A stretch of 64,000 nucleotides of DNA from positions 157,232,001 to 157,296,000 of the forward strand of contig OZ024742.1 of the NCBI GenBank assembly GCA_964016885.1. The letters run 5' to 3'. The notes below the pieces were generated by a model. The model saw nothing but the letters and a program-made list of their open reading frames with translations. It was not told the origin of the DNA and did not search any database. Below, piece after piece: positions 1 through 61,720 of the stretch. Both the position numbers and the translations under genes were made by a program. The first letter of the stretch is position 1. Every line of letters starts with the position of its first letter. Source of the stretch: Eledone cirrhosa (Eukaryota).

Positions 1-134
1 AAAAAAAATTACAATGAAAAATTCCCCAAAAGGGGTGAGTCTTCCGAGGGACATTTGTGGAGAAAGCCCATTAAAAGGCCACAGTGACCCTGACCACCAG
101 GGCAAGTGCCCTCTCCCAGTTTTCCACCTTTAAT

Positions 135-3100
135 TTAGAGACACATACTCAGAGTAGGCCCATTCACTCGGGCCATACTTGCTTCTATCACCCATCTTTC
201 AACAAAATGCTGGGAAGAGAGTACTTCCCTCTCTACCCTGATTTTTCCTTTTCAAATGAAATTTGAAAAAGTTAATCAGGGCATAAGCGAAGGTAAGTGC
301 TCGTCTTCAGCCCTTTCAAACGTGTCCACCATACTATCACTTTCACCATGGCCACCAGACAGGTAAAAACTGCCTGCCCTTCCCGGCTAAAGGAAGAAGG
401 CGGGGCAATCCTCACGGTGGACTCAGCTGATAGCTGGATCCGTCCTACACGTGACAGGAGGTGTTCGACATAAACCCACAAGTCAGCAATGCTCGGACAC
501 TGGACGAATGCGTGCAGGACGGTTTCGTCGCCGTGCGCGCATCTCGGACATGCCGCGATGCCTGTAGAGTTTATCCCGAACTGACAAAGCTCCTCGGTAG
601 CACTGCCAGGCCAGGGATTTCTAGAAGTTGTCCATAGGCCCCGGCCCGAAAGTCCTTCCAAAGAGATTGGCTAGTTGATTTTCGTCGACGCCTAGAGTTT
701 CTCCAAGTAGGTCGTCGCTCTTCCCATCCACTAATCCTCTATAGAACGCCAAGGTGGAGTTTCCACCGACCACATTGCCCGATTGGTCGAGGGCTGTGAG
801 CGCCTGAAGACATTCCAGTCTCCAAGCGCTCCCACTCAGTCTTCGCTTGACCCAGGACTGCAGCTCCGTCAAGGAGACGAGCTGGGTAGAGACCTGTCTA
901 GCAAACGGCGACCACACCTGATCACCGTCGAGGAAGAGGTGGAGATGTCGTAGACATCATCAGCCACGGCATGCCCAGCCCTCCACGTAGCGGGTGCTGA
1001 CAACAGATGGACCGCCTGACCATCGGAGCACGTCGTTTCCACAAAAAGCGAAAGGGCAAACGCTCAAGCGAAGTCAGGTGGGGCTTAGGACATGGTACGA
1101 CGGTCAGGCGGTAGTAGATGACGTACGCGATGTACACGTTAGCCACTTCCGCTCGACCTTTCAGGGATAGCTTCCTCTCCGCCCATTTCTGAGTGAGAGA
1201 AGCCACCCTGCTCGTCACCTCGTCCCAGTTTTTGTCCGTCTGGAGGTCCGGACCGAACCAGACCCCTAGTAATTTAACCGGTGCGTCCGTCCAGCGCCCG
1301 ACGATGCTGTTGGACGGCATGGACCTGCCTCTCCAGGTGCCGAGCTGCAGGCACACTGACTTTTTCTGATTGATGATTGCTCCTGTCACCGCTTCGTATT
1401 CTCTTAGTGTAGTGCCAGTCGCCTCGATATGTTTGGCGTTCGACACCACTACGGTAACATCGTCCGCATATGCTGACACGGACCTTCCGATTCCTAGTTC
1501 GCGCAGCACCCCCCTCAACGTCTCCAGTTTGTGCAGTAATGGCTCGACGGTCAATACGTACAAGAGGGACGAGAGGGAACATCCTTGGCAGACCGAGCGC
1601 ATGATGTTGAACGGTTCCGCAAGGTGACCGTTCACTCTCACCACAGAGCAGTGTCGCGTTGCAGGGCAGCGATCCAGCCTCTGAAGACGAGCCCAAAGCC
1701 AACCGCCCTCAGGACTGCCGCTAGGTAACGATGGTCGACCCTATCGAAAGCTTTCGACTGATGTAAATTGATCAAGGACCCACCCGTGCCAGCTTCTCTA
1801 GCTACGCTCTCTACGATGTATCGCATAAGGTGGAGGTTGTCGTGGATAGATATGTCGGGAATGGCGCATGTCTGCACCTCTCCCACCAGACCACCAACGA
1901 CAAGCGCCAACCTCTTTGCTAGCACCTTGGCCAAAATATTGAACTCTGTGTTTTACAGAGTTATCCCCCTTGTTCGGATCCTTTATCATCAGCGCCACCG
2001 CTCCTCGGCTCACAGAGCTGGGAATCCTCCCGTTCGTTTTCCATTTGCAGTAGTGGTCCGCCAAGAGGCCTCCGAACAAGTCTGGCATTTGTACGTAAAG
2101 TTCATAGGGCAGACCATCCGACCAGGCGATTTAACCCTTGTGCAGTTAGTCATTTCCTCCCGTACTTCAGCGGCTGTTATCGGCTTTTCGCAACACTCCG
2201 CCTCAGTGGCCGAGAGCCGCGGCAGTTCGTCGAGGTAGACACTAAAGTCCATCCCTCGATCCGGCCCGCCGCTGCCCCCGAACAGTTGAGTGAAGTATCA
2301 CTGAAAAGCTTCACACATTTGCCCGGGATCGAGTAGCATGCGCCCGTCGTGGTCCACCAAATACCGGATCGTGGCTTTGTTACCACGATGCGCCTCCGCC
2401 ACTCGGGTGCATTGAACGGCTTTCGTCCCCTCATGTCTGAGAGCACGCACCCTAGCTCTGACAACGCAGCCTTCGTGCTTTGCATTGAAGAATTGGTCAA
2501 GGGCCAATTTCGCCGCAAGTACGTCGGTCGCGATGCCTTTGCTACGCCTCGTCTAATTTTCTTAATAATTCTCCCTCTGCTCTATTTTTCTCTATTGCTA
2601 AAGCCTTACTAAACCTAATGGACTCTATTCTAATTGCTCTTTTCAGAGCAAACCACCACTTGTTGTTGACGATGGTCACCGTCAACGCCCGCTTAACTAG
2701 TTCGCTAACCCGGTCTCTGTAGGCCTTCCGCGCTGGTAAGCACGCGTTTAGCTTCCAGTAGCCGGCTCCTCGTCTATGAAGCCTATCTAAGTCAAGCACA
2801 CAAATCACAAATCTGTGGTCCGTGTAGCTGACTATCTTGAAATGTGGACCTATCTATTTCCCTACAAAATACTCTATCTAGATATTATCTGGATGACCCT
2901 ATGCGATTTGTCCAAGTCCACATGTGCACATTCGGGAAATCCAATGTGAACCTGTCAGACAGTTCAAAATGCTTAGCAGGTTGGTGAGGCTATTGCACCG
3001 TCCACCCCTATCCGCTAATCCCACACAGTCCCAGCGTGCATCCCGTTCCAGTCGCCCACTAACAGTAAAGAGCGGGACGTTCCAAGAAAGGTATCCAGAC

Positions 3101-3470
3101 GCCGAAAGAAATCAGGCCGCCCTGCTCCTGTCGGGGCATAGACGGCCACTAGCCTGAAAGCTTGCCCGTCTCCGCTGGTCACGTCTAGCAAACCAAATTA
3201 CCTTCTGGGTCCAGGAAGATGGCCCGTATGGCGAGATACAAACCTCTTCGAAAAAGCACAGCAACTCATCCCCCCAATCCCGGACGGCTGGGAGATGCGT
3301 ACACATCGTAGCCGCCGAAGATCGGTGCGAAGGCCTGTGCTTCGGAGATCCTGGTCTCGCTGATGACCACGATCTATGTTTAGTGACATGAGGTCGTTGA
3401 GCAGGTGGCCCTGCTTCTACGACGACCCCAAGCCACGCGCATTTATGCTGCCTATTCTGAGTGAAGTCAT
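135..3470 (-). pseudogene. ORF2 (APE endonuclease + reverse transcriptase + C-terminal Zn motif), frameshifted
   Basis: ORF-track pieces 272-661, 922-1644, 1638-1934, 2010-2252, 2298-2507 and 2542-2808 carry GAGYWKLN, KSPG, QSKAFDRVDH, AYADD, LSLKGRAEV and GGLG motifs typical of Tx1/L1 ORF2. Confidence 0.88.
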
Positions 3471-3503
3471 GTTGAAATGAGAGGAAAAGATGGGAATGAC
3501 CAC

Positions 3504-5413
3504 TTACCTTACTTCTTGTAGAGGAAGGATGGTTTGTCCATTCCTTTCACTGCTTGTGGCCTCCTCCGGAAGGATGACCTTATAAATCCTCCTAGAGAGT
3601 GTTTGTCGAAAGTCTCCGATGTCTTTGGGGAATTTTTGTTTTAGTGTCGTGTACGTTTTCTGTGTGATGCGAGTGATTTGTATGTGTGGAGGTGGTGTGA
3701 ACTTTTGGGTTGTTGTGTAGTCTTTTTCTGTGATGCTGGTGTTGTGTTGCATCTAGTGTAATACTTGGTTGTTGTTCAAATTTAATGTGTAGTGTGTATC
3801 GTTTTGGTTGTTTTGTTTTGTTTGTGTTTGGTGTCAGTTTGTTTCTGTTACGCTTGTTGGTGACTTTTGTGGTGTTGGTGATGGTGGTGTTGGGGTTAAT
3901 GATGGTGATGGTGTTGGTGATTGTGGTGATGGGGTTGGTGATGCTGGTGTGGATGGTGGCATATCTGTCCTAACTTTTTGGTTTGATAGTTTATTTGTTT
4001 CTCTCTGTATATTGTTTTTGGAGGGGGAAGGAAGGGAATTCTTTTCTTTTTTGGCTTCTTTTATTCTTTTTTCCTGATACCCTTTCCCACTCCTCGTAGT
4101 CACAATCTGTCTCCAGTTGCTATAAGCCGGGGAGTGGAAAATCCTCCACAGGCGTTGGTTTTGGTTGTGGCGTGGTGGATGGTGTAGGCGCTGGTGCTAC
4201 TTCTGGCGCGTTTGGTGGTGTTGGTGTTGGTTTTGCTACTGTTGCTGCGGTTGTTGCTGTTACAGTTGCTTCTGTTGTTGCTGCTACAGTTGTTGCCGCC
4301 ATCTCTGCTGCTTGTGGTGTTGATGGTTGAGTCACTGGGGTGGGTAAGAGAGGTGGCCTCAACCTTTTAGCCTGAGGGCAGAAAGCCCTTAGGTGGGTTC
4401 CTTCACCACAAACGACACACCTAGGCCTTCTGCCCTTGACGATTACGGTGAGGTGGCTGCCGTCAGTGAGGTCTGTTACATCTGGGATCACCTCAATGCT
4501 GTTATGGTCCGCTTGGATCAGAAGCTCCATTCCAGATCCGGACCAGTTCTCCTGCTTTTCTTTCGCTATTTCGATTATCTTGGTGTTGGCCTCGATGCCG
4601 GCGAGGGCGGCAGCCATTAGCCAGGAAGTTTCGATGGCCGGTGGAACGTGGGTCACCCTGATATTCACGAATCTCTGGCCACAATAGCTTGGGACGAGTG
4701 TGAAGTCGACACTTCTTAATGGGGCCATGGAGTGTTCTCTGGCCTCCTGTGGTGTTTCAAAGAACACGTCCACGGTTCCATATTTCTACCCACGTCTGAT
4801 GTTTTTTTTTTTGCCCACACATGTCCCAAAGCTCTTTGGAATTTGGACTCGGATGCCCGTTCCACTCGGCGCGATTTTATATCCGATAAGATATAGGCGA
4901 CGATGCTCCATATTATTAGGTGTGTGTAGGGGGGGCGGCGCTGACCCTGAACCCATCTTTCTTTACCATTCTTTTGGCTTCTTCTAATTCCTCCTGAGTT
5001 ACCTGGATCGCTTCGCACGTTTTTGCTACTTTCGCAAAAGACGGTAGTTTTCTTAATTTCATTGTTGTTGTTGTTACCGTTATTTTTGTTATTGTTAATT
5101 TTTTTAGTTTCAGTTGTGGTGGTGTCGGTGGTGTTCGGTGTGGAAGAGTTCATTTTGGTTGAATTCATTTCGATATCACGAGTTAATTTTTTTTTCTTTT
5201 GTTTCTGTTGTCGCTGTGGTGATAGTGGTGGGGGTTGCCTGCTTTAACACCTGCAGTGATTGGTAATGGCGGGAAATGAATGTCTGCCTGAGACAAATTT
5301 AAAATATTGATACTGCTTATATTTTTAGTGTTGGCAAACGTAGTAATATTTACAATTGTGGTGTCGGTGTGCGGGGTTAGTTTGTGAGGAAGGTGTGAAT
5401 CTGAGTCGGCCAT
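3504..5413 (-). pseudogene. ORF1 (gag-like nucleic-acid-binding protein with CCHC zinc knuckle), frameshifted
   Basis: RCVVCGEGTHLRAFCP (CX2CX4HX4C) in ORF 4120-4773, with Thr/Asn/Pro-rich flanks. Lies directly upstream of ORF2. Confidence 0.8.
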
Positions 5414-5971
5414 GATTGTTCAAAGAAATTGTTTGTTTGTTTGATAATTATTAAAAGTTTAAATTTTGGGCTCAAGGCCCCAATCTTTTTGAGTGTCCTT
5501 TTCTGAAATCAATGTATGTGCACTTATATATAGTTAACAATAAAAATGTTCCATAAATGGCAATGTTAAACAACTGAAAATAACAAACCTTTGCGGAGCT
5601 CACGATGATACGATATACTACGTAGGTCGCCAATAATAATAATAATAATAATGATTTCTTTATTGGCCACAAGGGCTGACATCAAGAAAAACATTACAGA
5701 CGGCACAGGACGGTACGATGTGGGTTTTGTGCGTGTAAATATTTATATTATTTATATAAGAAAAGAAAAAAATGACATAGAAACATATATATATATCTAT
5801 ATATATATATATATATATATAAACGATAAAAATGAAAATTGAAACAATGAAAAATTCCCCAGTAGGGGGGTAATCCTCCGAGGGTTACTCGTGGCGAAAA
5901 CCACACAAAATACAACGGCCAACCTGACCACCAGGGCAAGCGCCCTCTCTCAATTGTTTCCATTTCTCAAA

Positions 5972-8900
5972 CTACTGACGTATATTCAGAGTTGTCCCGT
6001 TCACTCGCACCATTCTCGCTACATTCACCCACCTTTCAACAAACTTGCTAGAAGGCAGCACTTGCCTCTCCATCCTGATTTTCCTCTTCAAATGAAACTT
6101 GAAAAAGTTAATTAGGGATTCGCTGAAGAGGAAGGTGTCTGTCTTTAACTCGTTTAACATTGTCCACCACACAAGCTCTTTCGCCATGGCCACCAGGCAG
6201 ATGAAAACGCTTGCCCTTCCTCCACGAAGGAAGACGGCGTGACCATCTGCACAATGGACTCAGTCGACAACCAGATCAGTCCTACACGCGACAGCAACTG
6301 TTCGACATTGCTCCACAAGTCAGCAATGCTCGGGCATTGAACGAGTGCGTGCATAACGCTTTCGTCGCTCTGCGCGCATCTCGGACAGGCTCGGCTGGCG
6401 GCACTTCCGTGACTGTAGAGCTTATCTCGAACCGGCAACGCTCCCCGGTAGCACTGCCAGGCCACGGATTTTTGGAAGTTATCCATAGGCTCTGGGCTGA
6501 AAGTTCTCCGGAAGAGAGCAAACAGCTAATCTTCGACGCCCAGGATCTCTCCGAGAATGTCGTCGCTCTTCCCCTCCACTAGTCCTCTATAGAAGCCGAG
6601 ATGGATGTTCCACCGATACTGGTGCCCAGCTGCCAGAGAGCAGTGAGCGCGTGGAAACATTCCAGTTTCCAAGCGCTATCCCTCCGTCTTTTTCTGACCC
6701 AGGACTGCAGCTCCATCAAGGAGACGAGCTGTGGGAAAACGTGCCTGGCGAACGGCGATTACACCTGTTCACCATCAAGGAAGCACCAGATATGTCGCAG
6801 CCTCAGCGCATGTTTGCGCATCATTAGCCATGGCATGCTCAGTCCTCCATGCAACGGGTGTTGACAGCAGATGGATCGCCTGTCAATGGGAGCGCGTCCC
6901 TTCCACAAAAAGCGGAAGAGTAGGCGCTCCATTTTGGTGAGAGTTGGGCTGGAGCAAGGGACGACGGTGAGGCGGTAGCAGATGACGGATGCGATGTACG
7001 CATTCGCCACCTCCGCCCGGCCTTTCAGGGACAGCTTCCTCTCGCCCCATTTCTGGAGGTTCGCTCCGAACGAGACCCCGAGCAATTTAACCGGTCCGTC
7101 CGTTCAACGCCCCACGACGCTGTCGGACGGCATGGACTTGCCTCTCCAGGTGCCGAGCTGCAAGCCGATCGACTTTTCCTGGTTTATCTTTGTTCCTGTC
7201 ATCTTTGGACCCGCATCCTAGTTCGTATTGGAGGCCCCTCATCGCCTCCAGTTTGTGCAGTATCGGCTCGAGAGCCAATACGTACAAGAGGGACGAGAGG
7301 GGACAACCCTGGCGGACTGAGCGCATGATGCTGAACGGCTGCGACAGGTGACCGTTGACCCTCACAACTGAGCAGATGTCGCTGTACATTGCTGTACATT
7401 GCTGCGAAAATCTTGACCTCTGCGCTTAGCAGAGTTATGGGCCTGAAATTATCGATAACATCCCCCTTGTTCGGGTCTTTTCTCAGCAGCACCACTGCTC
7501 CCCTGCTCACAAAACTAGGAATACTCCCGTCTGCTGCCAGTTGCACTAGACGTCTGCCAAGAGGTCACCGAAAAAGTCTGTCATAAATGCATAAAGCTCG
7601 TAGGGAAGACCACCCAAACCTGACGATTTACTCCTTGTGCAGTTAGCCATCGCTTCCCGTATTTCACCAGCTGTTATTGGCTTTTCGCAACACTGTGCTG
7701 CGGTCGTCGAGAGCTGAGGCAGTCCGTCGAGCTATTCACTGAAGTCCATGCCCCGATCCGGGCCACCGCCGCTCCCGAACAGTTCAGCAAAGTGCTGCTG
7801 AAAAGCTTCACACATCTGCTCGGGTTCGAGCATCACGCACCCGTTTTGGTCAGACAAAGACCGAATTGTGGCTTTGTTGCCACGTCGCGCCTCTGACACC
7901 TGGGCCCATTGGACGGCTTTTGTCCCCTCGTGTTTCACAGCACGCGCTCTAGCTCTGACAACGCAGCCTTCGTGTTTTGCATTGAAGAATTGGTCGAGTT
8001 CCAATCTCGACGCAAGCACGTCAGTTGCGATGCCTGTCCTAAACGCCGCTTCTAGCTTTCTGACTAGCTCTCCTTCTACTCTATTTTCATCACTACTCCT
8101 TTGCTAAACCTAATCAACTCTCCTTTAATTGCCCTTTTCAGGGTGAAATACCACCTGTTGTTGACGACCCCTCCCGTCAACGCCCGCTTAACTAATACGC
8201 TAATCCGGTCTCTGTAGGCTTTGCGCGCCGGGAAAGACGCGTTCAGCTTCCATTAACCAGGCCCTTTTCTATGAAGTCTGTCTATGTCGATCTCAAAGAT
8301 CACAAATTTGTGGTCTCTGTAGTCGATTATTTTAAATTATGGACAACTTAAACTAGCATTATCTAGTTCTCTGCAGAATACCCTATCGAGATACGATCTT
8401 GATGACCCGATGCGGTTTGTCCATGTCCACATTGGTACATTCGGGTGAACCAGTCGATACCTGTCAGACAATTCAAAACGTCTGAGCAGGTTGCTCAGGC
8501 TCTTGCACCCTCCTCTACTAGCCCCATGCACTAGCCCCACACAATCCCAGCGTGCATCCAAGATACCGTTCCAGTCGCCCACTAACACTAAAGAGCGGGA
8601 CGTTCCAAGAAAGGTCAGAAGAATTCTGGCCGTCCTGCCCCTGTTGGGCGTAGATGGCTACACGCCTGAAAGCATTGCCTTCGCTGCCGGCCACGACCAG
8701 CACCACCGTCCCACCCCCTGGGTCCAGGAAGATGGCCCGTATCGCGAGATCCAAGCCTCTACGAAAAAGGACGGCAACCCCGCCCCCCGATCCAGGACGG
8801 CTGGGAGATGCGTATACATCGTAGCCGCCGAAGATCGGTGCGAAGGCTTGTGCCTCGGAGATTCTGGCTTCACTGATGGCCACCACATCCATGTTTAGTG

Positions 8901-8985
8901 ACCTGAGGTCGTTGAGCAGGTGACCCTGCTTCCAAGATGACTCCAGACCATGTGCACCTATACTCTCCATTCTGAGTACGTCCAT
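5972..8985 (-). pseudogene. ORF2 (APE + RT + Zn motif) with internal deletions
   Basis: Motifs VVAISE, LVGDWN, TWTN..SYLDRVF, FRPITLL, SVRQGCPLS and CPRC..ESVMHALVQCP. The YADD segment (about 7200) and the KAFD segment (about 7390) present in copy 1 are deleted. Confidence 0.88.
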
Positions 8986-9020
8986 GTTGGATGAGAAACG
9001 GAGCAAGTGAGAAAGGGTCA

Positions 9021-11050
9021 CTTACCTTGATCGTGTGGTGAAGGGACAGTAGAACCGTCCCTTTCGCTGGTCATGGGTGTTTCCAAGAGGATGTCAGTAT
9101 ATATCCTTCTTGGTAACCGACCTTCTGAAGTCTCCAACTACGTTGGGGAATTTTTGTTTTAAAAGTTTGTACTGTTCTATTGAGATTTCGATGATGCTTA
9201 TATTTGTTGGGAGAGTTCTTGGTGTTGGTGGGGTATAGTAGTTTTTTTCTGTGATGTCTGTGCGCAGCTTTATATATTGTATGAGTTCTTTTTTTGCCAT
9301 GTTTAAGGCTGTGTACTTTATGGGGGGAGGTGTGACTTGTTGCTGTTTTCTTCTTGTTACTGTTTGGTGTGCGTGTCTTGATGTGTTTCCGTTGTTGGTG
9401 TTTTTGGTGATGCTGGTGGTGGTGTGGTTGTTGTTGTCAGTGGTGCCAGTGGTGGTGATGGTGGTGGTGTTGCTGCAAGTTTCCTTGCTGCCTTTACCCC
9501 TCTTTGTATGCCTTCGCTTTTGGAGGGTGAATCTAAGGGTGTTTTTGTTTTTTGTTTTTTGTGGCAGACCGTTTGCCACTTCACTCCCGCCTCAAACTCC
9601 ATGTCCGATTTTGTGGCGTCTGGGTGCGGTATGTCCTCCACGGCTGTTAGTGGTGGTAGTGGAGCCGTCTTCGGCAATTTTGTTGCTGGTGTAGCTACTT
9701 CAAATGTAGCTATTGGTGTTGCCTCCACTGATTATGCTGCTTTTGTTGTCCGTGGCCTTGGTACGGGTGCTACGGACGTTGCCCTCCTACTCACCGTGGA
9801 ACGGGCTTCTGCGTTTGTTACCTGCCCTGTTCTTGGTAGCAGCGGACCAGGTATTGGAAGGAGAGGGGCCTTCTTCTTCGTTGTCTTCTGCGGGCAAAAG
9901 GCCCTGAGATGACCCTTCGACCCACAGAGATAACATTTTGGCCGTCTTCCTTCTACACTTATACGGAGTTGGAGTCCTTCCTTGATGTCTATGATATCGG
10001 GGATAGCGTCGATACATTCCTGGTCAGTTTGTATAAACATTTGCATGCCTATACCTGACCAGTTCTCTCTCCCTATTTTTTCTACTTGCAGCACGGTCGT
10101 CCTGTTTTCGATTCCAGCAAGGACAGACGCGGCCAGCCAATGTATGGGCACGTCGGGTGGGACCTGGGTCACTTTGACTCTCACAATTTTCTGCCCGCAG
10201 TAGGAGGTCACCAAGACTATCTCCTCACTCTTTAGGGTTTCCAAAGAGTAAGACTTCGCTTTTTGGAATAGTACGTCTACTGTGGTGTACTTTCTGCCTC
10301 GGGTGATGTCGGTTTTGCGTGCCCAGACGCACCCCAAGGCCTTTTGGATTTGAGCCTCCGTGGCTCTCTCCACCCGATGTGAGATTTTGCTTACGGTGTG
10401 GTAAGTCACCGTCCGTAGCTGCTGGTTCTTAAAAAAAATCGGGTGGAGGTTTCAGGGATACTCTATTGGCGCTTCTTGTCACCATGGCCCTTGCGACTGC
10501 CATCTCCCCCTCTGTGACTAACACTGTTTCGATATTTCGGGCGACACCTTCAAAAGAAGTGGTCCCTTTTTCAGCGGCACCACTATTATTGCTGCTACTG
10601 GTCTTGCCGGTCGTGCTGAGATTGCTGTTACAGGTATTGATGTCATTGTTGTTGTTTTCGTTGGTACAGTTGTTGGTGTTGTTGTTGTCATTGTTGTTGT
10701 TTTCGTTGATACCGTTGCTGTTGTTACTGTTATTGTGGCTGTTGTTATTATTCTTGTTTGTGTTGATACTGTTCCTACTATTATTGTTGTTGTGGTTGTT
10801 GTTATTGCCATTGTTATTTTCGTTCTCGACCTTAACGCTGTTATTTGTGTTATTGTCGTTCTCGACTTTACGCTGTTATTTTTGTTGTTGCTGTTGTTAT
10901 TAATGGTTTTGTTGTTGGTGTTGTTGTTGGTGTTATTGTTGGTGTTGTTTGTGTTAGAAATATTTGTTAATTTTAAATCTGTAACAATATTTTCCTTTGT
11001 AATATTTTCATTTATATTTACCTCCGCTAGAACGCTGTCTTGTTGACATG
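9021..11050 (-). pseudogene. ORF1 (CCHC zinc knuckle), disrupted
   Basis: KCYLCGSKGHLRAFCP in ORF 9732-10409, homologous to copy 1 ORF1. The N-terminal part is low-complexity and (AAC)n-derived. Confidence 0.8.
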
Positions 11051-14238: not shown

Positions 14239-14572
14239 CTATTTTCTAATTTCAAACCTGCTCACTGTTTCAAAACATACTTACTTGTCATATATATATA
14301 TATAAATAGTAATAATAATTCGTTCACCATACAGACGCATACATACATAGATACATACATACATGCATACAAAGACATACACACTTTATGAACATTTATG
14401 CAGTTTGATGAAGTAAAAACATAACGTCTATGAAAAAATATCCTTTATATATATATATAATACTCTACTATATAATATAATACTCTACTATATAATATAA
14501 TACTCTACTACCTCAAGTATTGAGTACTTTGGTGCGTTATGGTCCACCTGGTTCCTTACCACATTTCCTTCG

Positions 14573-14624
<52 letters not shown>

Positions 14625-14753
14625 ATATATGAATATAGACATAGAATATTCGAAAATATTCTGTATGTTTATAATAAACATTTTGAAGACCTAATCGCTA
14701 TAGAATAGAATACGTCACGTATTACAATTAGATTCTCGATAAAAGCAAGGGAA

Positions 14754-14796
14754 GTAATCTACGCGTTTCATTCTTATTAGAAATCTTCAGGACTAC
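14754..14796 (-). ncRNA. Type I hammerhead ribozyme (310-nt family)
   Basis: Reverse complement of the motif at 15138-15180. Confidence 0.8.
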
Positions 14797-15137
14797 ATAT
14801 CCAGTGCTTTTATCGAGAATGACACAGCTAGAGACTTATAGAATACTTAGCTGTGTACAGGAACTGGTTTGAAAGAGCGGTTGCCGGTCCGGCAGAAATT
14901 AGAAATTGGAATAAATGCTCTGAAATAGCGATATATATGTGAATATAGACATAGAATATTCGAAAATATTCTGTATTCTGTATGTCTATATTCACATATA
15001 TATCGCTATTTCAGAGCATTTATTCCAATTTCTAATTTCTGCCGGACCGGCAACCGCTCTTTCAAACCAGTTCCTGTACACAGCTAAGTATTCTATAAGT
15101 CTCTAGCTGTGTCATTCTCGATAAAAGCACTGGATAT

Positions 15138-15180
15138 GTAGTCCTGAAGATTTCTAATAAGAATGAAACGCGTAGATTAC
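15138..15180 (+). ncRNA. Type I hammerhead ribozyme (310-nt family)
   Basis: gtagtc-CTGAAGA-t ttct aata agaa t-GAAA-cgcgt-A-gattac. Palindromic stem III ACGCGT, GUA site. Stem I is extended by a 15-bp ttctcgataaaagca/tgcttttatcgagaa helix. Confidence 0.82.
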
Positions 15181-15447
15181 TTCCCTTGCTTTTATCGAGA
15201 ATCTAATTGTAATACGTGACGTATTCTATTCTATAGCGATTAGGTCTTCAAAATGTTTATTATAAACATACAGAATATTTTCGAATATTCTATGTCTATA
15301 TTCACATATATATCGCTATTTCAGAGCATTTATTCCAATTTCTAATTTCTGCCGGACCGGCAACCGCTCTTTCAAACCAGTTCCTGTACACAGCTAAGTA
15401 TTCTATAAGTCTCTAGCTGTGTCATTCTCGATAAAAGCACTGGATAT

Positions 15448-15490
15448 GTAGTCCTGAAGATTTCTAATAAGAATGAAACGCGTAGATTAC
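15448..15490 (+). ncRNA. Type I hammerhead ribozyme (310-nt family)
   Basis: Identical to 15138-15180, one period downstream. Confidence 0.82.
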
Positions 15491-15807
15491 TTCCCTTGCT
15501 TTTATCGAGAATCTAATTGTAATACGTGACGTATTCTATTCTATAGCGATTAGGTCTTCAAAATGTTTATTATAAACATACAGAATATTTTCGAATATTC
15601 TATGTCTATATTCACATATATATCGCTATTTCAGAGCATTTATTCCAATATATATATATATATTAAGTTGTTAAACAATATTCGATGATTATGACAAAAA
15701 ATGAGTTTTACTGTAGATTGGAAGCACTCACCGGGTTAAAAAAATTATTTTCAGGTGTTATTAATATTAAATTATAAGTATTAATAAAATAGATGTTCTT
15801 TTGATGA

Positions 15808-15870
15808 ATTACATTTTATCATACATATTTCGGATGTATAGCAGTACGTCCTCATCAGACAAAATATAAT
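15808..15870 (-). ncRNA. Degenerate type I hammerhead in the PLE pLTR
   Basis: attatattttgt-CTGATGA-ggacgta ctgcta tacatcc-GAAA-tatgtatg-ataaaatgtaat. The partner copy at 20035-20099 (+) has lost GAAA. Confidence 0.55.
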
Positions 15871-17776
15871 GATACATGGCAAACCCTGAGATGTTAAATG
15901 GTTATGATTTAATCACGGTAGTGATTACCCGATAGAAAACTTTACTTTTATAATATCTGTGTGAAAGTGCGAAAACGTAATGAATTCATTAGAGAATGTG
16001 TGAGTAAGAAAAAACGTTGCATACTGTAAGTGTTCTAAAATTTTAAAGTGTTTGATACAACCATATATCTAGGGAAACGTCTCTTGAATCATAACAGTCA
16101 GTGATAGCCACTGGAAAAAGATTTATAAGGAGGGAAAGATAAAGTGTGGGTTTTTTTTTCGAAAGTTAAACGGTTAGATTTGAAAATATTTAATTTATAA
16201 TATAAAGGTGAAGACTCCAAATTTCAGGATTATTTGCTAATTATTTATATACTATTTATATAAATTCGATAAGTGTGTTATCATTTCTAAACTTCTGAAT
16301 TTTATGATGGTAACATTTAAAGGATTTAGCTGGCACATAAAGAATGAAATATTATACTGTTGATTATTTACCTCAATTCAAACTTTTAAAAATATACCAA
16401 CATATTAGGTATGTAAAGCTTTTGAAGTACTTATTGTTATAAATATGTAAATAACTATTATGTATATAGGTATATATTAATATATTGATGAGCCAGTATG
16501 TTTAAGGTAAATAATAACGAAGATAACAATAAAATAAGATAATATATTGAAGGATGTTAAGGATAAATATATACCTATATATAACTGGGTGTAAATGCAC
16601 TAATTATTCTTCAACCAAGATATCAACTTAGATATATATTAGGTATTATTAGTGTAGTATACTTTAGGTAAATGATAACAGTTATAAGTTTATCAATGTG
16701 TCACATTTAAATACATGCATATATATATATATTTAAGAAAAACAACAATTGGAAAAAATGAAACGAAATTTCATTTCTCACTCTTAGTACGGCTGTTACT
16801 TAAATATAAATATGTATACGTACATACACATATGTATACAGACGTATGTATATATATACATACATGCACATATATATATTTATATATTAACGTCTGGATT
16901 TAACGAGCATTTATTATAATGCTCGGTTTGTTTGTAATCAAACATCCCGAATTAAGCCGTATAGTGTTTAGCAACCATCGTTGCCCTTTTGTTCAACACT
17001 GACAAAGAAACGATATACTAGTTTCAAGCTTATTAGCTATCGTCAGCACCGTATACCTTCCTGCCAGATGATTGAACGTATACATACTTATATAAAAACA
17101 ACAATGAGTGCATGGATAATACAGAGTTCAAAATAATGTCTATAATAATTTTTAGTTTGGATATTTTCTCTATATTTGAATCATATATATAGAAATGTGG
17201 TAGATATATTTAAAAATATATAAAATATAATATATAACTACATACATATTATAATACATTATATTATAAATAGATGAGAGATCGAAAGCGGGGAAAAAAA
17301 TTCACATTTATATATAAGTTTGAATCCGTCTCAAGTTTTAGATTTTATAGTGCAGTAAATATATTTATAAGAAATATATGCTATATTATACAATAAATAA
17401 TAGATCAAAAACTCATTAAAAATTTAGAGTTATAGATAAGTTTCATAAAAATTTATGGATTGGGTATTAAACTACAATTTAAGAGATCACAAATGTTTTA
17501 AACATTCACAGTTAAATAAATTCTGTAAATATGTAAGGATTAGGTATTATACTAAATTATAGGCATATATAGGACGATAGATGGAGAAATAAGGAGATAA
17601 AGAAATGATGGTATTGATCTAAGTTAACAAATAATGTTGTGTGTATCAATGTTTAGGCATGTTAATTGAAATATTGTCATTCATTCTAGCGTTTTTTCTT
17701 CTATAGATATTTATAAAATAAAGCTATAGTAAATAGCTATAGTAAATAGTATAAGTAAAAAGCTATAGTAAATAGT

Positions 17777-18600
17777 ATGCAAAAACCTATTAATGAAATA
17801 TCAGCTAATAAAGATATATTTGATAAAAATGCGGAATATTACAACAACGCTTTAAAAAGAGCAGGATACATGAATAATATAGAATATGTAGATAATAACA
17901 ATCCAATTATTATTCCTCATAATAATAATAAAAATTATAACAAATATAAGAGTAACTCTAATAACTACAACTCAAACACACATACGCTAAATAAATCGAG
18001 AATACGAACTAGATCTAAACCAGTCATATGGTTTGCACCCCCTGCTTCGGTCGCAGTTAAAACACCAATTGCAAAACTATTCTTTAAATCTTGACACCTC
18101 TTTCCCTACTCAACATAAATACCATTCCATTTTTAATAGGCATACCATTAAATTCGCAAATTCTACAACCAGTAGCATGGCCCAAAACATCGCCAAATTA
18201 AACGCCAAAATTCTAAAACGAAACCAACATAATGATCATAATAATAGAAATAACATTAATGATACTAAACCAAAATGTAATTGTAGAAATAAAAGTTTAG
18301 ATAATAATTGTTTAGATAGTAATTTGGTTTATAAATGCACGGTAAAAACTGACAATAAAACATACAATTACGATCAACCTCGTCCACATTCAAACTTCGT
18401 TTCGCGAACCATAAATGCTAAGTCTCGAACTCTAAGAAGAAATCATCCACGTCTTTATCACAGCTCATATGGCCTTTAAAAGAGAAGGATCTGGAATACT
18501 CCATTCTCTGGACCAAACTTCGTAACTGTGGAATTCACCGCAACTCTAGTATGTCAAATAACTGCCCGCTCTGTACAATGGAGACCCTGTTAACTTTGAT
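17777..18600 (+). pseudogene. Penelope RT thumb/linker + GIY-YIG endonuclease fragment
   Basis: IFDKNAEYYNNALKRAGY, VIWFAPP, HKYHSIFNRHTIK, CNCRNK..CLDSNLVYKCTV, and downstream CPLCTME. Confidence 0.8.
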
Positions 18601-19142: not shown

Positions 19143-19191
<49 letters not shown>

Positions 19192-20131
19192 CAATGTAGC
19201 ACGTTGTTAAGTGTATAACTGTTATCATTTACCTAAAGTATACTACATTAATAATACCTATTATATATGTATATATATACATCCCTATATCTAATAATAT
19301 GTTGATATCTTGGTTGAAGAATAATTAGTACATTTACACCCAATTATACATATGTATAAATTTATCCGTAACATATTATTTTATTTTATTTTTATCGTCG
19401 TCGGTATTATTTACCTTAAACATACTGACTCATTAATATATACCTATATACATATTAGTTATTCAAATAGTTATAACAATAAGTACTTCAAAAGCTTTTC
19501 ATACCTAATATGTTGGGATATTTGTTAAAGTTTTAGATTTAGGTAATTAATCAACAGTATAATATTTCATTCTTTATGTGCCAGCTAAATCCTTTATTCT
19601 CACAATTCAGAAGTTTAGAAATGATAACACACTTATCGTATTTATATAAATAATATATAAATAATTAGCAAATAAACCTGAAATCTGGATTCTTCACCTT
19701 AATATTATAAATTAAATATTTTCAAATGTAACCGTTTAACTTTAGACATCCCCCCTCATACTTTATCTTTTCCTCCTTATAAATCTTTTTCCAGTGGCTA
19801 TCACTGGCTGTTATGATTCATGAGACGTTTCCCTAGATATATATTAGTATCATACACTTTAACATTTTAGAACACTTACAGTATGCAACGTTTTTTCTTA
19901 TTCACACATTCTCTGATGAATTCATTACATTTTCGCACTTTCACACAGATATTATATAAGTAACATTTTCTATCGGGTAATCACTACCTTGATTAAATCT
20001 TAACCATTTAACATCTCAGGGTATGTCATGTATCATTATATTTTGTCTGATGAGGACGTACTTTTGTACATCCGTATTTATGTATAATGAAATGTAATTG
20101 ATCAAAAGAACATCTATTTTATTAATACTTA

Positions 20132-20271
<140 letters not shown>

Positions 20272-39571: not shown

Positions 39572-40199
39572 TGTTTTCTTCGGAAAATATATTTATTCCA
39601 TTTCAGAAACTAATTAGTTGGAAGTGATATTTTAGAAAGTAAGTTAATTTTATAATTTTCTTATTTTACGACTCTCATATTATTGTTCTGCAACCCCATG
39701 CATTGAACCACAAAGTTACTAAGACAAAACCTATATATTTGCTAGCATTGATATGCATCTGTATGTATATATATGTTACTAGATATTAATTCTTTATAAT
39801 TATCTCCAAATTATTTGTCGAGCAATATTGGCCAAGACTGCTGCTATGGTAGCAGGCAGGCCGCTGTCTTATTAGCAAACCACTTTCCACTGATTGACCT
39901 CGATGTCACGTGATTGATTCTTTTTGAATTTGCCACCGACGCTGAGGCAGTGATTTTCTCAATGGCTAGGAATTCAGTCCACGCTTTGCTATTTTCTATC
40001 CACTGAATTATGTTTGAATAAGTTTCCAGAGTCCACGCTTTGCCTGGATACTTAGATGAGAATAGTCTTCCCTGACGACGAAATGATTCTTAATGTTTTC
40101 TTCGGAAAATATATTTATTCCATTTCAGAAACTAATTAGTTGGAAGTGATATTTTAGTAAGTAAATTAATTTTATAATTTTCTTATTTTACGTCTCTCA

Positions 40200-40203
<4 letters not shown>
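39572..40203 (+). repeat. Diverged 1.2-unit (522-bp period) relative of the 557-bp HHR array
   Basis: Direct repeat at 39572/40094. Shares gaaactaattagttgga, ttattgttctgca, tttgctagcat, tttgtcgagcaa and tgtcacgtgattgattcttt with the 44.5-46.2 kb units. Confidence 0.85.
40067..40146 (+). ncRNA. Type I hammerhead with extended stem II (cUUCGg-capped)
   Basis: cttcc-CTGACGA-c gaaatg..tgttttc ttcg gaaaata..catttc a-GAAA-ctaattagt-T-ggaag. Confidence 0.85.
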
Positions 40204-43066: not shown

Positions 43067-43158
43067 CTATATATATATATATATAAAGGACGTAAAATAA
43101 GAAAATATTTTTAAAAAAAAAAATTTTTTTTTTAAATTTTTTACTTACTTAAATTTTC

Positions 43159-43240
43159 ACTCCAACTAATTAGTTTCTGCAATGGGATAAAGACAGTTAC
43201 GTAATCCAACTGTCGAGAATTCATTGTGTCATCAGGGAGT
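43159..43240 (-). ncRNA. Type I hammerhead (557-nt family)
   Basis: Reverse complement of 44854-44935 with one stem II substitution. Confidence 0.8.
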
Positions 43241-43717
43241 CTATTCTCAGTTAAGTCTCCAGGCAATGCGCGGACACTGGCGGCTCATATAAAAATAATA
43301 ATAATTCGGTAGATCGAACAGCTTGCGAGGACTGGATTCTATGTACCGAAATTCTCACTGCTTCAAGTCAAATGGCCGATTCTAAAGAATCAATCACGTG
43401 ACACAGAGGCTAGTTAGAAGGAATGGGATGGTAAGATGACTGACGCCTACTAACACCCCAAAAAAAAATTTTTTTAGAAGTGGTTTTGGCAAGTTTGCTC
43501 GACAAATCAGTGATTTGGAGATAAATATAGATAATTTAATATATCAACTAACATAAGCGCACAGATGCACGCCCATGCTAGCAAATACACAGGTTATGTC
43601 ATAGTACCTAGGTCGTTCAATGCAGGAGAATGCAGAACAATAATATAAAGGACGTAAAATAAGAAAATATTTAAAAAAAAAAATTTTTTTTTAATTTTTT
43701 TACTTTCTTAAATTTTC

Positions 43718-43799
43718 ACTCCAACTAATTAGTTTCTGCAATGGGATAAAGACAGTTACGTAATCCAACTGTCGAGAATTCATTGCGTCATCAGGGAGT
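43718..43799 (-). ncRNA. Type I hammerhead (557-nt family)
   Basis: Reverse complement of 44854-44935. Confidence 0.85.
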
Positions 43800-44274
43800 C
43801 TATTCTCAGTTAAGTCTCCAGGCAATGCGCGGACACTGGCGGCTCATATAAAAATAATAATAATTCGGTAGATCGAACAGCTTGCGAGGACTGGATTCTA
43901 TATACCGAAATTCTCACTGCTTCAAGTCAAATGGCCGATTCTAAGAATCACTCACGTGACACAGAGGCTAGTTAGAAGGAATGGGATGGTAAGATGACTG
44001 ACGCCTACTAACACCCCAAAAAAATTTTTTTTAGAAGTGGTTTTGGCAAGTTTGCTCGACAAATCAGTGATTTGGAGATAAATATAGATAATTTAATATA
44101 TCAACTAACATAAGCGCACAGATGCACGCCCATGCTAGCAAATACACAGGTTATGTCATAGTACCTAGGTCGTTCAATGCAGGAGAATGCAGAACAATAA
44201 TATAAAGGACGTAAAATAAGAAAATATTTTTTAAAAAAAAATTTTTTTTTAATTTTTTACTTACTTAAATTTTC

Positions 44275-44356
44275 ACTCCAGCTAATTAGTTTCTGCAATG
44301 GGATAAAGACAGTTACGTAATCCAACTGTCGAGAATTCATTGCGTCATCAGGGAGT
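44275..44356 (-). ncRNA. Type I hammerhead (557-nt family), GUU>GCU cleavage-site mutant
   Basis: The plus strand reads actccagctaattagtttc instead of actccaactaattagtttc. Confidence 0.7.
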
Positions 44357-44853
44357 CTATTCTCAGTTAATTCTCCAGGCAATGCGCGGACACTGGCGGC
44401 TCATATAAAAATAATAATAATTCGGTAGATCGAACAGCTTGCGAGGACTGGATTCTATGTACCGAAATTCTCACTGCTTCAAGTCAAATGGCCGATTCTA
44501 AAGAATCAATCACGTGACATGGGCGTGCATCTGTGCGCTTATGTTAGTTGATATATTAAATTATCTATATTTATCTCCAAATCACCGATTTGTCGAGCAA
44601 ACTTGCCAAAACCACTTCTAAAAAAATTTTTTTTGGGGTGTTAGTAGGCGTCAGTCATCTTACCATCCCATTCCTTCTAACTAGCCTCTGTGTCACGTGA
44701 TTGATTCTTTAGAATCGGCCATTTGACTTGAAGCAGTGAGAATTTCGGTACATAGAATCCAGTCCTCGCAAGCTGTTCGATCTACCGAATTATTATTATT
44801 TTTATATGAGCCGCCAGTGTCCGCGCATTGCCTGGAGACTTAACTGAGAATAG

Positions 44854-44935
44854 ACTCCCTGATGACGCAATGAATTCTCGACAGTTGGATTACGTAACTG
44901 TCTTTATCCCATTGCAGAAACTAATTAGTTGGAGT
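44854..44935 (+). ncRNA. Type I hammerhead with extended stem II (557-nt family)
   Basis: actcc-CTGATGA-c gcaatg aattctc gacagtt ggattacgt aactgtc tttatcc cattgc a-GAAA-ctaattagt-T-ggagt. Palindromic AACTAATTAGTT. Confidence 0.88.
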
Positions 44936-45410
44936 GAAAATTTAAGTAAGTAAAAAATTTAAAAATTTTTTTTTTTTTTTAATATTTTCTTATTTTACGT
45001 CCTTTATATTATTGTTCTGCATTCTCCTGCATTGAACGACCTAGGTACTATGACATAACCTGTGTATTTGCTAGCATGGGCGTGCATCTGTGCGCTTATG
45101 TTAGTTGATATATTAAATTATCTATATTTATCTCCAAATCACTGATTTGTCGAGCAAACTTGCCAAAACCACTTCTAAAAAAATTTTTTTTGGGGTGTTA
45201 GTAGGCGTCAGTCATCTTACCATCCCATTCCTTCTAACTAGCCTCTGTGTCACGTGATTGATTCTTTAGAATCGGCCATTTGACTTGAAGCAGTGAGAAT
45301 TTCGGTACATAGAATCCAGTCCTCGCAAGCTGTTCGATCTACCGAATTATTATTATTTTTATATGAGCCGCCAGTGTCCGCGCATTGCCTGGAGACTTAA
45401 CTGAGAATAG

Positions 45411-45492
45411 ACTCCCTGATGACGCAATGAATTCTCGACAGTTGGATTACGTAACTGTCTTTATCCCATTGCAGAAACTAATTAGTTGGAGT
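45411..45492 (+). ncRNA. Type I hammerhead (557-nt family)
   Basis: Same as 44854-44935. Confidence 0.88.
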
Positions 45493-45967
45493 GAAAATTT
45501 AAGTAAGTAAAAAATTTAAAAATTTTTTTTTTTTTTTAATATTTTCTTATTTTACGTCCTTTATATTATTGTTCTGCATTCTCCTGCATTGAACGACCTA
45601 GGTACTATGACATAACCTGTGTATTTGCTAGCATGGGCGTGCATCTGTGCGCTTATGTTAGTTGATATATTAAATTATCTATATTTATCTCCAAATCACT
45701 GATTTGTCGAGCAAACTTGCCAAAACCACTTCTAAAAAAATTTTTTTTGGGGTGTTAGTAGGCGTCAGTCATCTTACCATCCCATTCCTTCTAACTAGCC
45801 TCTGTGTCACGTGATTGATTCTTTAGAATCGGCCATTTGACTTGAAGCAGTGAGAATTTCGGTACATAGAATCCAGTCCTCGCAAGCTGTTCGATCTACC
45901 GAATTATTATTATTTTTATATGAGCCGCCAGTGTCCGCGCATTGCCTGGAGACTTAACTGAGAATAG

Positions 45968-46049
45968 ACTCCCTGATGACGCAATGAATTCTCGACAGTT
46001 GGATTACGTAAATGTCTTCATCCCATTGCAGAAACTAATTAGTTGGAGT
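45968..46049 (+). ncRNA. Type I hammerhead (557-nt family)
   Basis: Same motif, with two substitutions in the distal stem II. Confidence 0.85.
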
Positions 46050-46234
46050 GAAAATTTAAGTAAGTAAAAAATTAAAAAAAAATTTTTTTTTTAAAATATT
46101 TTCTTATTTTACGTCCTTTATATTATTGTTCTGCATTCTCCTGCATTGAACGACCTAGGTACTATGACATAACCTGTGTATTTGCTAGCATGGGCGTGCA
46201 TCTGTGCGCTTATGTTAGTTGATATATTAAATTA

Positions 46235-46360
<126 letters not shown>

Positions 46361-60574: not shown

Positions 60575-61720
60575 TGGTTGTAATCCATTGTGAATTGTAA
60601 GTTAGTGTTGACCTCATTCAGAAGGGTTTTGAACTCAAACAGACTATCTATAATTTCAGGCCAGAGGATGAAAAGTCGTCCAGATATATCTTCCAGTTTT
60701 TTCTACGTGTTGGTAGAAGTGGTTGCCGTATTGGTCTAGAACTTTGCGTTAGAGAATGGTTTTCCAAATATCCCATGAATATCCTTCTACGGTATCCCCA
60801 AGACACACAAAAGCGAAGTAATAGGCAGGGCCTACAAGCAAGCCACAGACGTTTACATCACTATAGCCTCTCCTGATGACCTTAAATTCAGACCCATAAT
60901 AGCAGGCACCACATGTGAAACCCATCGCCTAAGCAACTTCGTAGATATTCTGCTTAAACCTTTTCTAAAACATATAAAAAGCTTCATAAGGGACGACCTT
61001 TACATGCTCAACCACCTCCCAACAACACTCAATAATGAATATACCCTACTAGTAACCTTTGATGTCATCAATTTATATTCCAATATCCTACACAACGTAG
61101 GTATAGAGACAATACAATTCTGGATGGAACATTTCCCTAGTAAACTTCCACAGCGCATCCCTAAAGAATTTGTGTTGGAGGGAATCAAATTCATCTTGGA
61201 AAACAATTTCTTCGAATTCAATGCCAAATACTACATACAGAAATCTGGGACTGCCATGGGCATGAAAGTGGCCCCCTTATACGCCAACCTTGTCATGGGA
61301 TATTTGGAAACCATTCTCTACCGCAAAGTTCTAGATAAATACGGCAACCACTTCTACCAACACATAGGAAAGAACTGGAAGAGATATCTGGACGACTTCT
61401 TCATCGTCTGGCATGAAAGTATAGATAGACAGATTGAGTTTAAAACCCCTGTGAATGAGCTCAACACTAACTTACAATTCACAATGGATTACAGCCATGA
61501 ACAACTCCCTTTCCTCGACATCTTCATCAAGAAAACAAGCAACAAAATAGAAACAGACATATAATACAAACCCACAGACTCCAAACAATACCTTCCATTA
61601 AACTCGTGCCACCCTAGACACAACAAAATAGCAATTCCTTATAACCTAGCCAGAAGGATCTGCATAATAGTTTCAGATAAATACACATTCTACACATAAC
61701 TAGAAGAATTAAAAAACACA
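60575..61720 (+). mobile_element. Penelope-like (possibly Neptune-type) RT fragment with an inverted 5' duplication
   Basis: FRPIIAG, LLVTFDVINLYSNI, YYIQKSGTAMG..APLYANL, WKRYLDD, LPFLD, KPTDSKQYL..SCHP. 60575-60778 is a diverged reverse complement of 61295-61499. Confidence 0.85.

What the first reader, a model, noticed from the sequence alone, without database searches (positions are those of the whole stretch)
14630..15648. Second, unrelated fold-back HHR array (310-nt unit) with the same architecture
Identical 310-bp units (1.1 in one orientation, 2.15 inverted) sit inside (TA)n and contain three HHRs with palindromic ACGCGT stem III and a GUA site. The unit is highly structured: a 15-bp distal stem I beyond an internal loop, an acacagcta/tagctgtgt hairpin and a gaatatt/aatattc hairpin. 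The inversion junction (about 14976-14980) falls right beside that last hairpin, which suggests snap-back or template-switch priming. The near-zero divergence between units implies a recent insertion. The same layout in an unrelated sequence points to a shared mobilisation mechanism.
Basis: partly seen in the sequence, partly recalled or inferred. Interest (0 to 1): 0.8.

Follow-up and report, generated by a model that had tools for sequence, protein, structure and literature searches.

The report
Twin-primed hammerhead retrozyme of Penelope type
A 310-base non-coding repeat carrying a predicted self-cutting RNA motif sits in about 17,000 copies in this animal genome, mostly as two back-to-back arrays inside TA microsatellites whose outer ends always pair one fixed stop point with another, likely because a Penelope-type reverse transcriptase copies one RNA (probably a circle) from both cut DNA strands.

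Summary
The array is real and as described. It is one insertion of a young family: 16,968 hammerhead cores and at least about 1,500 insertion ends in G000. It is a non-LTR retrozyme, a non-autonomous Penelope-like element (PLE) parasite. The inverted arm, the 35-nt tail at one end and the (TA)n target are published PLE marks.

What seems new is the regularity. In 86 of 86 resolved two-armed insertions the arms diverge, one ending at site A and the other at site B (one older copy is ambiguous). Both arms carry the same sequence variant (54 of 57, against 11% between insertions) and run up to about 45 units. Junctions are scattered, so snap-back at the hairpin is not the general rule.

Best mechanism (inferred): a PLE protein nicks both strands of (TA)n and primes two reverse transcriptions on one RNA, probably a circle; the two cDNA ends then join by microhomology. 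A young intact Hydra-type PLE is a candidate helper, not a proven one. Cleavage, expression and circles are untested. The scan noted a similar ribozyme-free array in another genome (e1-7881736).

The parts
14574..14629 (.). (TA)n target tract, left part
14630..14976 (-). Left arm, 1.12 units; outer end at site B (unit 130-139, counted from the base after the predicted cut), inner end at unit 94
14732..14820 (-). Type I hammerhead with distal stem; predicted cut after 14760 on the minus strand
   Evidence: core at 14790; limits mapped from the identical plus copy
14977..14980 (.). Inversion junction: 4 extra bases, part of a 7-nt local duplication, at the foot of the gaatatt hairpin
14981..15649 (+). 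Right arm, 2.16 units; inner end at unit 117, outer end at site A (unit 165)
15114..15202 (+). Type I hammerhead: distal stem 15114-15129/15187-15202, stem I 15138-15143/15175-15180, core from 15144, stem II with U-U at its base, palindromic stem III 15168-15173, predicted cut after 15174
15175..15484 (+). Cut-to-cut 310-nt monomer, the predicted linear or circular RNA
   Evidence: folds; expression untested
15424..15512 (+). Third hammerhead; predicted cut after 15484
15615..15649 (+). 35-nt 'tail' between sites B and A, present at this outer end only; begins with the internal CATATATAT that matches the target
15650..15663 (.). (TA)n target tract, right part

Best explanation
This is one young insertion of a non-coding, hammerhead-bearing 310-nt tandem repeat family, likely a parasite of Penelope-like retroelements, whose two back-to-back arms were likely made by one PLE complex nicking both strands of a TA tract and priming two reverse transcriptions on the same RNA, probably a circle. 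Shown: family size, divergent arms, strict A+B pairing of outer ends, the same variant in both arms, multi-unit arms, scattered junctions with short microhomology, TA targets, and young intact PLEs in the genome. Inferred steps: (1) arrays are transcribed and cut by the hammerheads, probably as dimers through palindromic stem III, and closed to 310-nt circles; (2) a PLE RT/GIY-YIG protein, probably a dimer, binds one RNA and nicks both strands of (TA)n; (3) one DNA end primes at site A with only about 2 nt of homology, the other at site B by pairing with the internal UAUAUAU; (4) each copies round the template a variable number of times; (5) the two cDNA 3' ends are joined by microhomology, sometimes with short extra sequence. 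The helper may be the Hydra-type PLE found here.
For: A+B in 86 of 86 resolved two-armed insertions, none A+A or B+B. By selection: 38 of 38 picked on A had B opposite; 26 of 26 picked on B without an exact A match had an A-region end, unit 160-172; 22 of 23 picked on the ribozyme core were A+B. Arms share a variant in 54 of 57 insertions against 11% of 3,192 between-insertion pairs; 35 variants among 87 insertions; within-arm mismatch 63 of 143,241. New variants fixed across whole arrays imply a one-unit bottleneck followed by re-amplification. One arm reaches about 45 units. Junction-side ends are not enriched at the ribozyme cut (4 of 172 against 5.5 expected). B exceeds A by more than one unit in 23 of 86, and B-only insertions outnumber A-only among core-selected loci (5 to 1), so B can prime alone. 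At B the internal C is replaced by T in 58 of 97 ends, as expected if the target strand overlaps it. Junction overlap of 3 or more nt in 16 of 50 junctions without extra bases against 6.8% at random. Published: a purified anole PLE cuts and extends both strands, starts at two sites that bound the tail, and is predicted to be a dimer (PMC11167929); retrozyme circles exist and PLEs were proposed as helpers (PMC7229834; bioRxiv 10.64898/2026.07.22.740005).
Against: No RNA, circle or cleavage data for this family. L121 switches variant (3 linked sites) after two outer units in both arms, and L105 and L265 share one private variant in register. A monomer circle alone does not explain these; they need a multimer template, a coordinated switch or arm-to-arm conversion. 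Arm lengths correlate (rho 0.33, p 0.002) and 7 of 86 are near-symmetric against 3.3 by permutation (p about 0.05), which fold-back also predicts. Junction-side ends are mildly non-uniform (p 0.035). The anole PLE did not need ribozyme cleavage and showed no strand difference in start site (PMC11167929). The candidate helper shares only the hammerhead core and stem II; the rest is not above shuffles. All loci but the window come from the first 184 Mb of one chromosome.
Confidence: 0.55

Rival explanations
1. Same two-ended PLE priming, but on a linear uncleaved multi-unit transcript; long arms grow later by unequal exchange.
For: In-register sharing in L121, L105 and L265; weak stem III and U-U at the base of stem II may slow cleavage; the anole PLE used unprocessed RNA (PMC11167929).
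Against: 35 variants, each nearly uniform across whole arrays and both arms, need a one-unit bottleneck. L097 switches in the A arm only. Most minority substitutions are not shared in register (shared at 3 loci among 68 calls).
Confidence: 0.2
2. Snap-back: the first cDNA (from A) folds back and copies itself to B, where the internal TA run anneals to the other target end; deletions at the palindrome centre then scatter the junctions.
For: Explains A+B pairing, shared variants, L121, correlated lengths, the small excess of symmetric arms and junction microhomology.
Against: B longer than A by more than one unit in 23 of 86; B-only insertions of up to 13.8 units; L097 arms differ in register; no junction enrichment at the hairpin (21 of 172 against 17.2) and junction-side ends are not close together (14 of 86 within 20 nt against 11.4 expected).
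Confidence: 0.17
3. Self-priming on an antisense RNA makes the head-to-head structure, as proposed for rotifer PLEs.
For: Proposed in PMC3846280 from palindromes at inverted junctions; two-armed loci could be transcribed in both directions.
Against: Junctions here are rarely palindromic or fixed; it does not by itself explain strict A+B pairing.
Confidence: 0.05
4. Fold-back read or assembly artefact.
For: This junction was not seen bridged among the listed contig pieces (most pieces were not shown).
Against: Artefacts would mirror the flanks and end at random. Of 78 loci, 10 gave a mirror-flank score: 9 in simple repeats and 1 (L114) in two diverged copies of another repeat. Outer ends are fixed and asymmetric.
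Confidence: 0.02

Closest known systems
Animal non-LTR retrozymes (Cervera and de la Pena 2020, PMC7229834; Li, Clavereau and Pollet 2026, bioRxiv 10.64898/2026.07.22.740005)
   Same: Tandem 150-450-bp low-GC units with one type I hammerhead each, no coding capacity, thousands of copies, co-occurring PLEs; U-U at the base of helix II and a palindromic helix III loop also occur in axolotl motifs.
   Different: Word searches of both main texts found no description of inverted arms, tails or microsatellite targets. The preprint favours local satellite-like amplification from a pLTR and finds pLTR homology; here the arrays look inserted ready-made, and no homologous pLTR was found.
EN+ Penelope-like elements with inverted pLTR and tail (PMC8557442, PMC3846280, PMC11167929)
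   Same: Inverted 5'-truncated copy head-to-head with the main copy, 30-40-nt tail at one end only, (TA)n preference, hammerhead, two start sites.
   Different: No ORF; both arms are multi-unit arrays; the tail, called optional in those papers, follows a strict one-A-one-B rule here.
L1 twin priming (recalled, no call)
   Same: Second target strand primes on the same RNA by short homology, giving divergent arms joined by microhomology.
   Different: Second site is fixed, not random; no poly(A); arms longer than one unit of template.
Non-autonomous Chlamys elements such as MRC1 (passage in PMC8557442)
   Same: Non-autonomous PLE derivatives with multicopy head-to-tail insertions.
   Different: Those share 3' sequence with their autonomous partner, and N-terminal-EN PLEs lack canonical hammerheads.

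Membership tests
Non-LTR retrozyme | Tandem units of about 150-450 bp, GC below 50% | tested here: met
   310 bp; 106 of 310 G+C in the majority unit
Non-LTR retrozyme | Type I hammerhead motif in every unit, core conserved | tested here: met
   Core motif and stems I-III present; 16 core positions invariant in 70 of 70 insertions not selected on the core; Rfam only E 0.5
Non-LTR retrozyme | Dispersed multicopy, no LTR or coding frame | tested here: met
   16,968 core matches; no frame of 120 aa or more over the array
Non-LTR retrozyme | Self-cleavage of the RNA | not testable with these tools
   Needs in vitro transcription
Non-LTR retrozyme | Expressed as monomeric circular RNA | tested here: inconclusive
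   340-base closed contigs in X4 and X5 fit a circle or tandem DNA equally
PLE-type insertion | Inverted 5'-truncated copy, head-to-head | tested here: met
   All 86 resolved two-armed insertions diverge
PLE-type insertion | 30-40-nt tail at one end only | tested here: met
   Ends at unit 130-139 and 160-172, paired 86 of 86
PLE-type insertion | (TA)n target | tested here: met
   TA run of 6 nt or more at both ends in 69 of 78 loci, at either end in 77 of 78
Autonomous PLE | RT plus GIY-YIG ORF in the element | tested here: not met
   No ORF in the unit
Derivative of a PLE pLTR in this genome | Sequence homology to an autonomous pLTR outside the ribozyme | tested here: not met
   None to the 784-aa family or the 713-aa family; other PLE families were not examined
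Hydra-clade PLE (candidate helper, L216-L245) | DKT, RWK-like and CxCX5C motifs, C-terminal GIY-YIG, hammerhead in pLTR, (TA)n | tested here: met
   DKT 116, RWR 38, CxCX5C 566, YRDD 347, TYIG 601; GIY-YIG only E 0.025, below cut-off; motifs as listed in PMC8557442; no tree was built

The most novel reading that the evidence does not exclude
Double rolling-circle target-primed reverse transcription: a PLE dimer holds one 310-nt ribozyme-made RNA circle, and each subunit takes one nicked strand of (TA)n and one of two fixed start sites. This single geometry would explain the PLE tail, head-to-head inversions and retrozyme arrays. The arrays would also record edits to the circle (A>G 10 against T>C 4 among array-fixed variants; 7 against 17 among private ones, Fisher p 0.018, post hoc).
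Probability: 0.33. Interest if true: 0.8.

Novelty: new variant of a known kind. Interest (0 to 1): 0.55.

Why it matters
How retrozymes enter the genome, and why PLE insertions carry an inverted copy and a one-sided tail, are stated as open in the papers read (PMC7229834, PMC8557442, PMC11167929). A non-coding 310-nt substrate with over a thousand near-identical young insertions, natural sequence variants that act as barcodes, and an intact young PLE in the same genome makes those questions directly testable. Each insertion also creates a long inverted repeat, and the family holds about 5.3 Mb (16,968 x 310). The family class itself is known.

Tried and rejected
DNA search of G000 with the unit returned nothing; the tool skips very common words, and pattern searches then found it. 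Rfam microRNA hits at the junction only reflect the inverted repeat.

No RNA holder listed. Horizontal transfer was considered because 20 runs under 18 organism labels hold at least 67% of the words; three holders (X1, X4, X5) and one related run (X23) of the 24 listed were laid. X4 and X5 hold the unit only as one 340-base contig. X4 also has host-type neighbouring repeats at low depth. Hi-C reads from X4's study (X23, 1,938 million letters) have none on the unit. Carry-over is therefore the simpler reading and transfer is not claimed; the other 17 holders are unexamined.

No match in metagenome or viral contigs. The 784-aa Neptune-like PLE family (clade label is my recall; RVT_1 plus GIY-YIG) shows no likeness to the unit. 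A test of selection on pairing was uninformative: 10 of 16 paired variants keep the pair against 9.0 expected. The count of junctions with extra bases (39 of 89) is inflated by variants near junctions and is not used. Target-site duplications cannot be read inside (TA)n.

Rows dropped before counts: L034 and L123 (duplicates), one of two identical L039 copies, the partial second array in L250, L076 (older copy with a 33-nt inverted stub ending at unit 149, fitting neither A nor B), L246 (101 bases, not analysed), and L077 in the junction counts.

Full report
OBSERVATION. The window is G000:C3:157232001-157296000 of a 3.0-Gb genome rich in microsatellites and retroelement fragments; the host was not identified. 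The finding is an exact structure: (TA)n, a 347-nt arm on the minus strand (14630-14976), four extra bases, a 669-nt arm on the plus strand (14981-15649), then (TA)n. Units are 310 nt and identical. Each unit has a type I hammerhead motif: stem I of 6 bp with a 16-bp distal extension, CUGAAGA, stem II with U-U at its base, GAAA, palindromic ACGCGU and a GUA site ending at 15174. The monomer is more structured than shuffles. Rfam does not call it at threshold.

FAMILY. The exact core occurs 2,575 times in G000 and the degenerate core 16,968 times, with controls of 0. Numbering the unit from the base after the predicted cut, outer ends fall at two sites. Site A (about 165) has 1,013 exact pattern matches; site B (130-139, at an internal CATATATAT) has 1,492, control 9. 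Both patterns miss variants, so these are lower bounds. I parsed 112 insertions, all from the first 184 Mb of C1 except the window, chosen three ways: by core, by A end, and by B end lacking an exact A partner. The result was 86 two-armed with both ends seen, 16 B only (two of these show an A stub of 8-22 nt), 6 A only (two cut by a gap or the fetch limit) and 4 with one end out of range. All 86 are divergent and pair one A with one B. Three of the cut cases (L108, L112, L127) have a B end at the expected side. One older copy, L076, fits neither and was set aside. Median arm lengths are 3.8 (A) and 3.1 (B) units, biased down by the fetch size; the longest is about 45.

TEMPLATE. The two arms of one insertion carry the same variant in 54 of 57 cases against 11% between insertions; 87 insertions hold 35 variants, and the catalytic core is invariant in 70 of 70 insertions not selected on it. 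Arrays are nearly uniform inside (0.044%). So both arms come from one RNA variant, and new variants pass through a single unit and are re-amplified, which is what a circle gives (inference). Against a pure monomer circle: L121 changes variant after two outer units in both arms, and L105 and L265 share one private base in register. L097 changes in the A arm only, which counts against in-register copying. An A>G excess among array-fixed variants (10 against 4 T>C; private variants 7 against 17; p 0.018) hints at RNA editing but is post hoc.

JUNCTIONS AND FLANKS. Among 50 junctions without extra bases, 16 overlap by 3 nt or more against 6.8% at random. One junction holds 272 foreign bases (L251). 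TA runs flank both ends in 69 of 78 loci, and flanks are not mirror images, which argues against read fold-back artefacts. This locus's junction was not confirmed in reads.

MECHANISM. Papers, and what I saw of each. Craig et al. 2021 (PMC8557442, passages) describe inverted 5'-truncated copies, a 30-40-bp tail often at one end only, and (TA)n bias for PLEs. Frangieh et al. 2024 (PMC11167929, parts 1-2 of 4) show a PLE protein cutting and extending both strands from two internal RNA sites that bound the tail, predict a dimer, and find ribozyme cleavage dispensable in vitro. Arkhipova et al. 2013 (PMC3846280, passages) explain head-to-head repeats by antisense self-priming. Cervera and de la Pena 2020 (PMC7229834, passages and Discussion) show retrozyme circles and propose RT-made tandem cDNA with PLEs as helpers. 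Li et al. 2026 (bioRxiv, parts 1-3 of 5 and a word search) link retrozymes to pLTRs. The data here fit two-ended priming on one RNA: A with about 2 nt of homology, B by pairing with the TA run (C replaced by T in 58 of 97 B ends). B-only insertions and 23 of 86 cases with B much longer than A argue against fold-back from A. L1 twin priming is a recalled analogy.

HELPER. Two young intact PLE families were found. A 784-aa family with an upstream 455-aa frame shows no likeness to the unit. A 713-aa family, with copies 1.2% apart, has Hydra-clade motifs; its pLTR hammerhead shares core and stem II with the unit (about 89% over 28 nt; 22,645 matches to the related pattern). It also ends in (TA)n at two sites about 70 nt apart, paired one of each in 4 of 4 divergent pairs seen (one pair is 6.5 kb apart and not verified as one insertion). 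Homology outside the ribozyme is not above shuffles, so the partnership is a candidate only.

NOVELTY. The class is known and the anatomy is PLE-typical. Six paper searches (mostly listings only) turned up no report of inverted multi-unit retrozyme arms, a strict A+B rule or shared variants between arms; the library is incomplete and supplements were not seen. The scan's notes hold a ribozyme-free tandem array with PLE-type ends in another genome (e1-7881736, unchecked), and nothing for this sequence or genome.

VERDICT. Real. New variant of a known kind. Family assignment about 0.9; twin priming on one, probably circular, RNA 0.55; interest 0.55.

Noticed in passing
window 43081-46245 (diverged relative at 39572-40202): 557-bp array with the same divergent layout and two different outer ends about 125 nt apart. 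Its best alignment to the 310 unit is not significant but starts at GATTAC and ends at the B-like end in both.
   Followed up: partly
L216-L245 (e.g. G000:C1:334029760-334034109): Very young, abundant, intact 713-aa Hydra-type PLE with a hammerhead pLTR and paired ends; a good substrate for biochemistry.
   Followed up: partly
L166-L180: Young PLE family with a 784-aa RT/GIY-YIG frame preceded by an overlapping 455-aa frame with no Pfam match, about 4.8-kb tandem period, and no hammerhead of its own found by my pattern.
   Followed up: partly
window 15764-16735 and 19165-20142: Inverted pair (86%) with hammerhead-like cores at 15858(-) and 20047(+), around a PLE-like frame at 17991-18479; probably an older PLE insertion.
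   Followed up: no
window 14484-14573: End of another very high-copy repeat abutting the same TA tract; similar ends flank both sides of L114. Likeness to the Hydra pLTR tail is borderline (score 42, shuffle maximum 44).
   Followed up: partly
L251:1499-1770: 272 bases of unrelated sequence captured at an inversion junction.
   Followed up: no
L130:3500-3891, L086:3873-4209, L045:3718-3822, L171:8694-9102: Older relatives of the unit at 68-81% identity, some still spaced as tandems: the family has a long history here.
   Followed up: no
window 1-10900 and 60779-61564: Two diverged copies of an APE/RT LINE-like element (73-74% alike) and a PLE RT fragment (RVT_1).
   Followed up: partly
runs X4, X5: Runs under other organism labels hold the unit as a closed 340-base contig with variants that also occur in G000; carry-over suspected.
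   Followed up: partly
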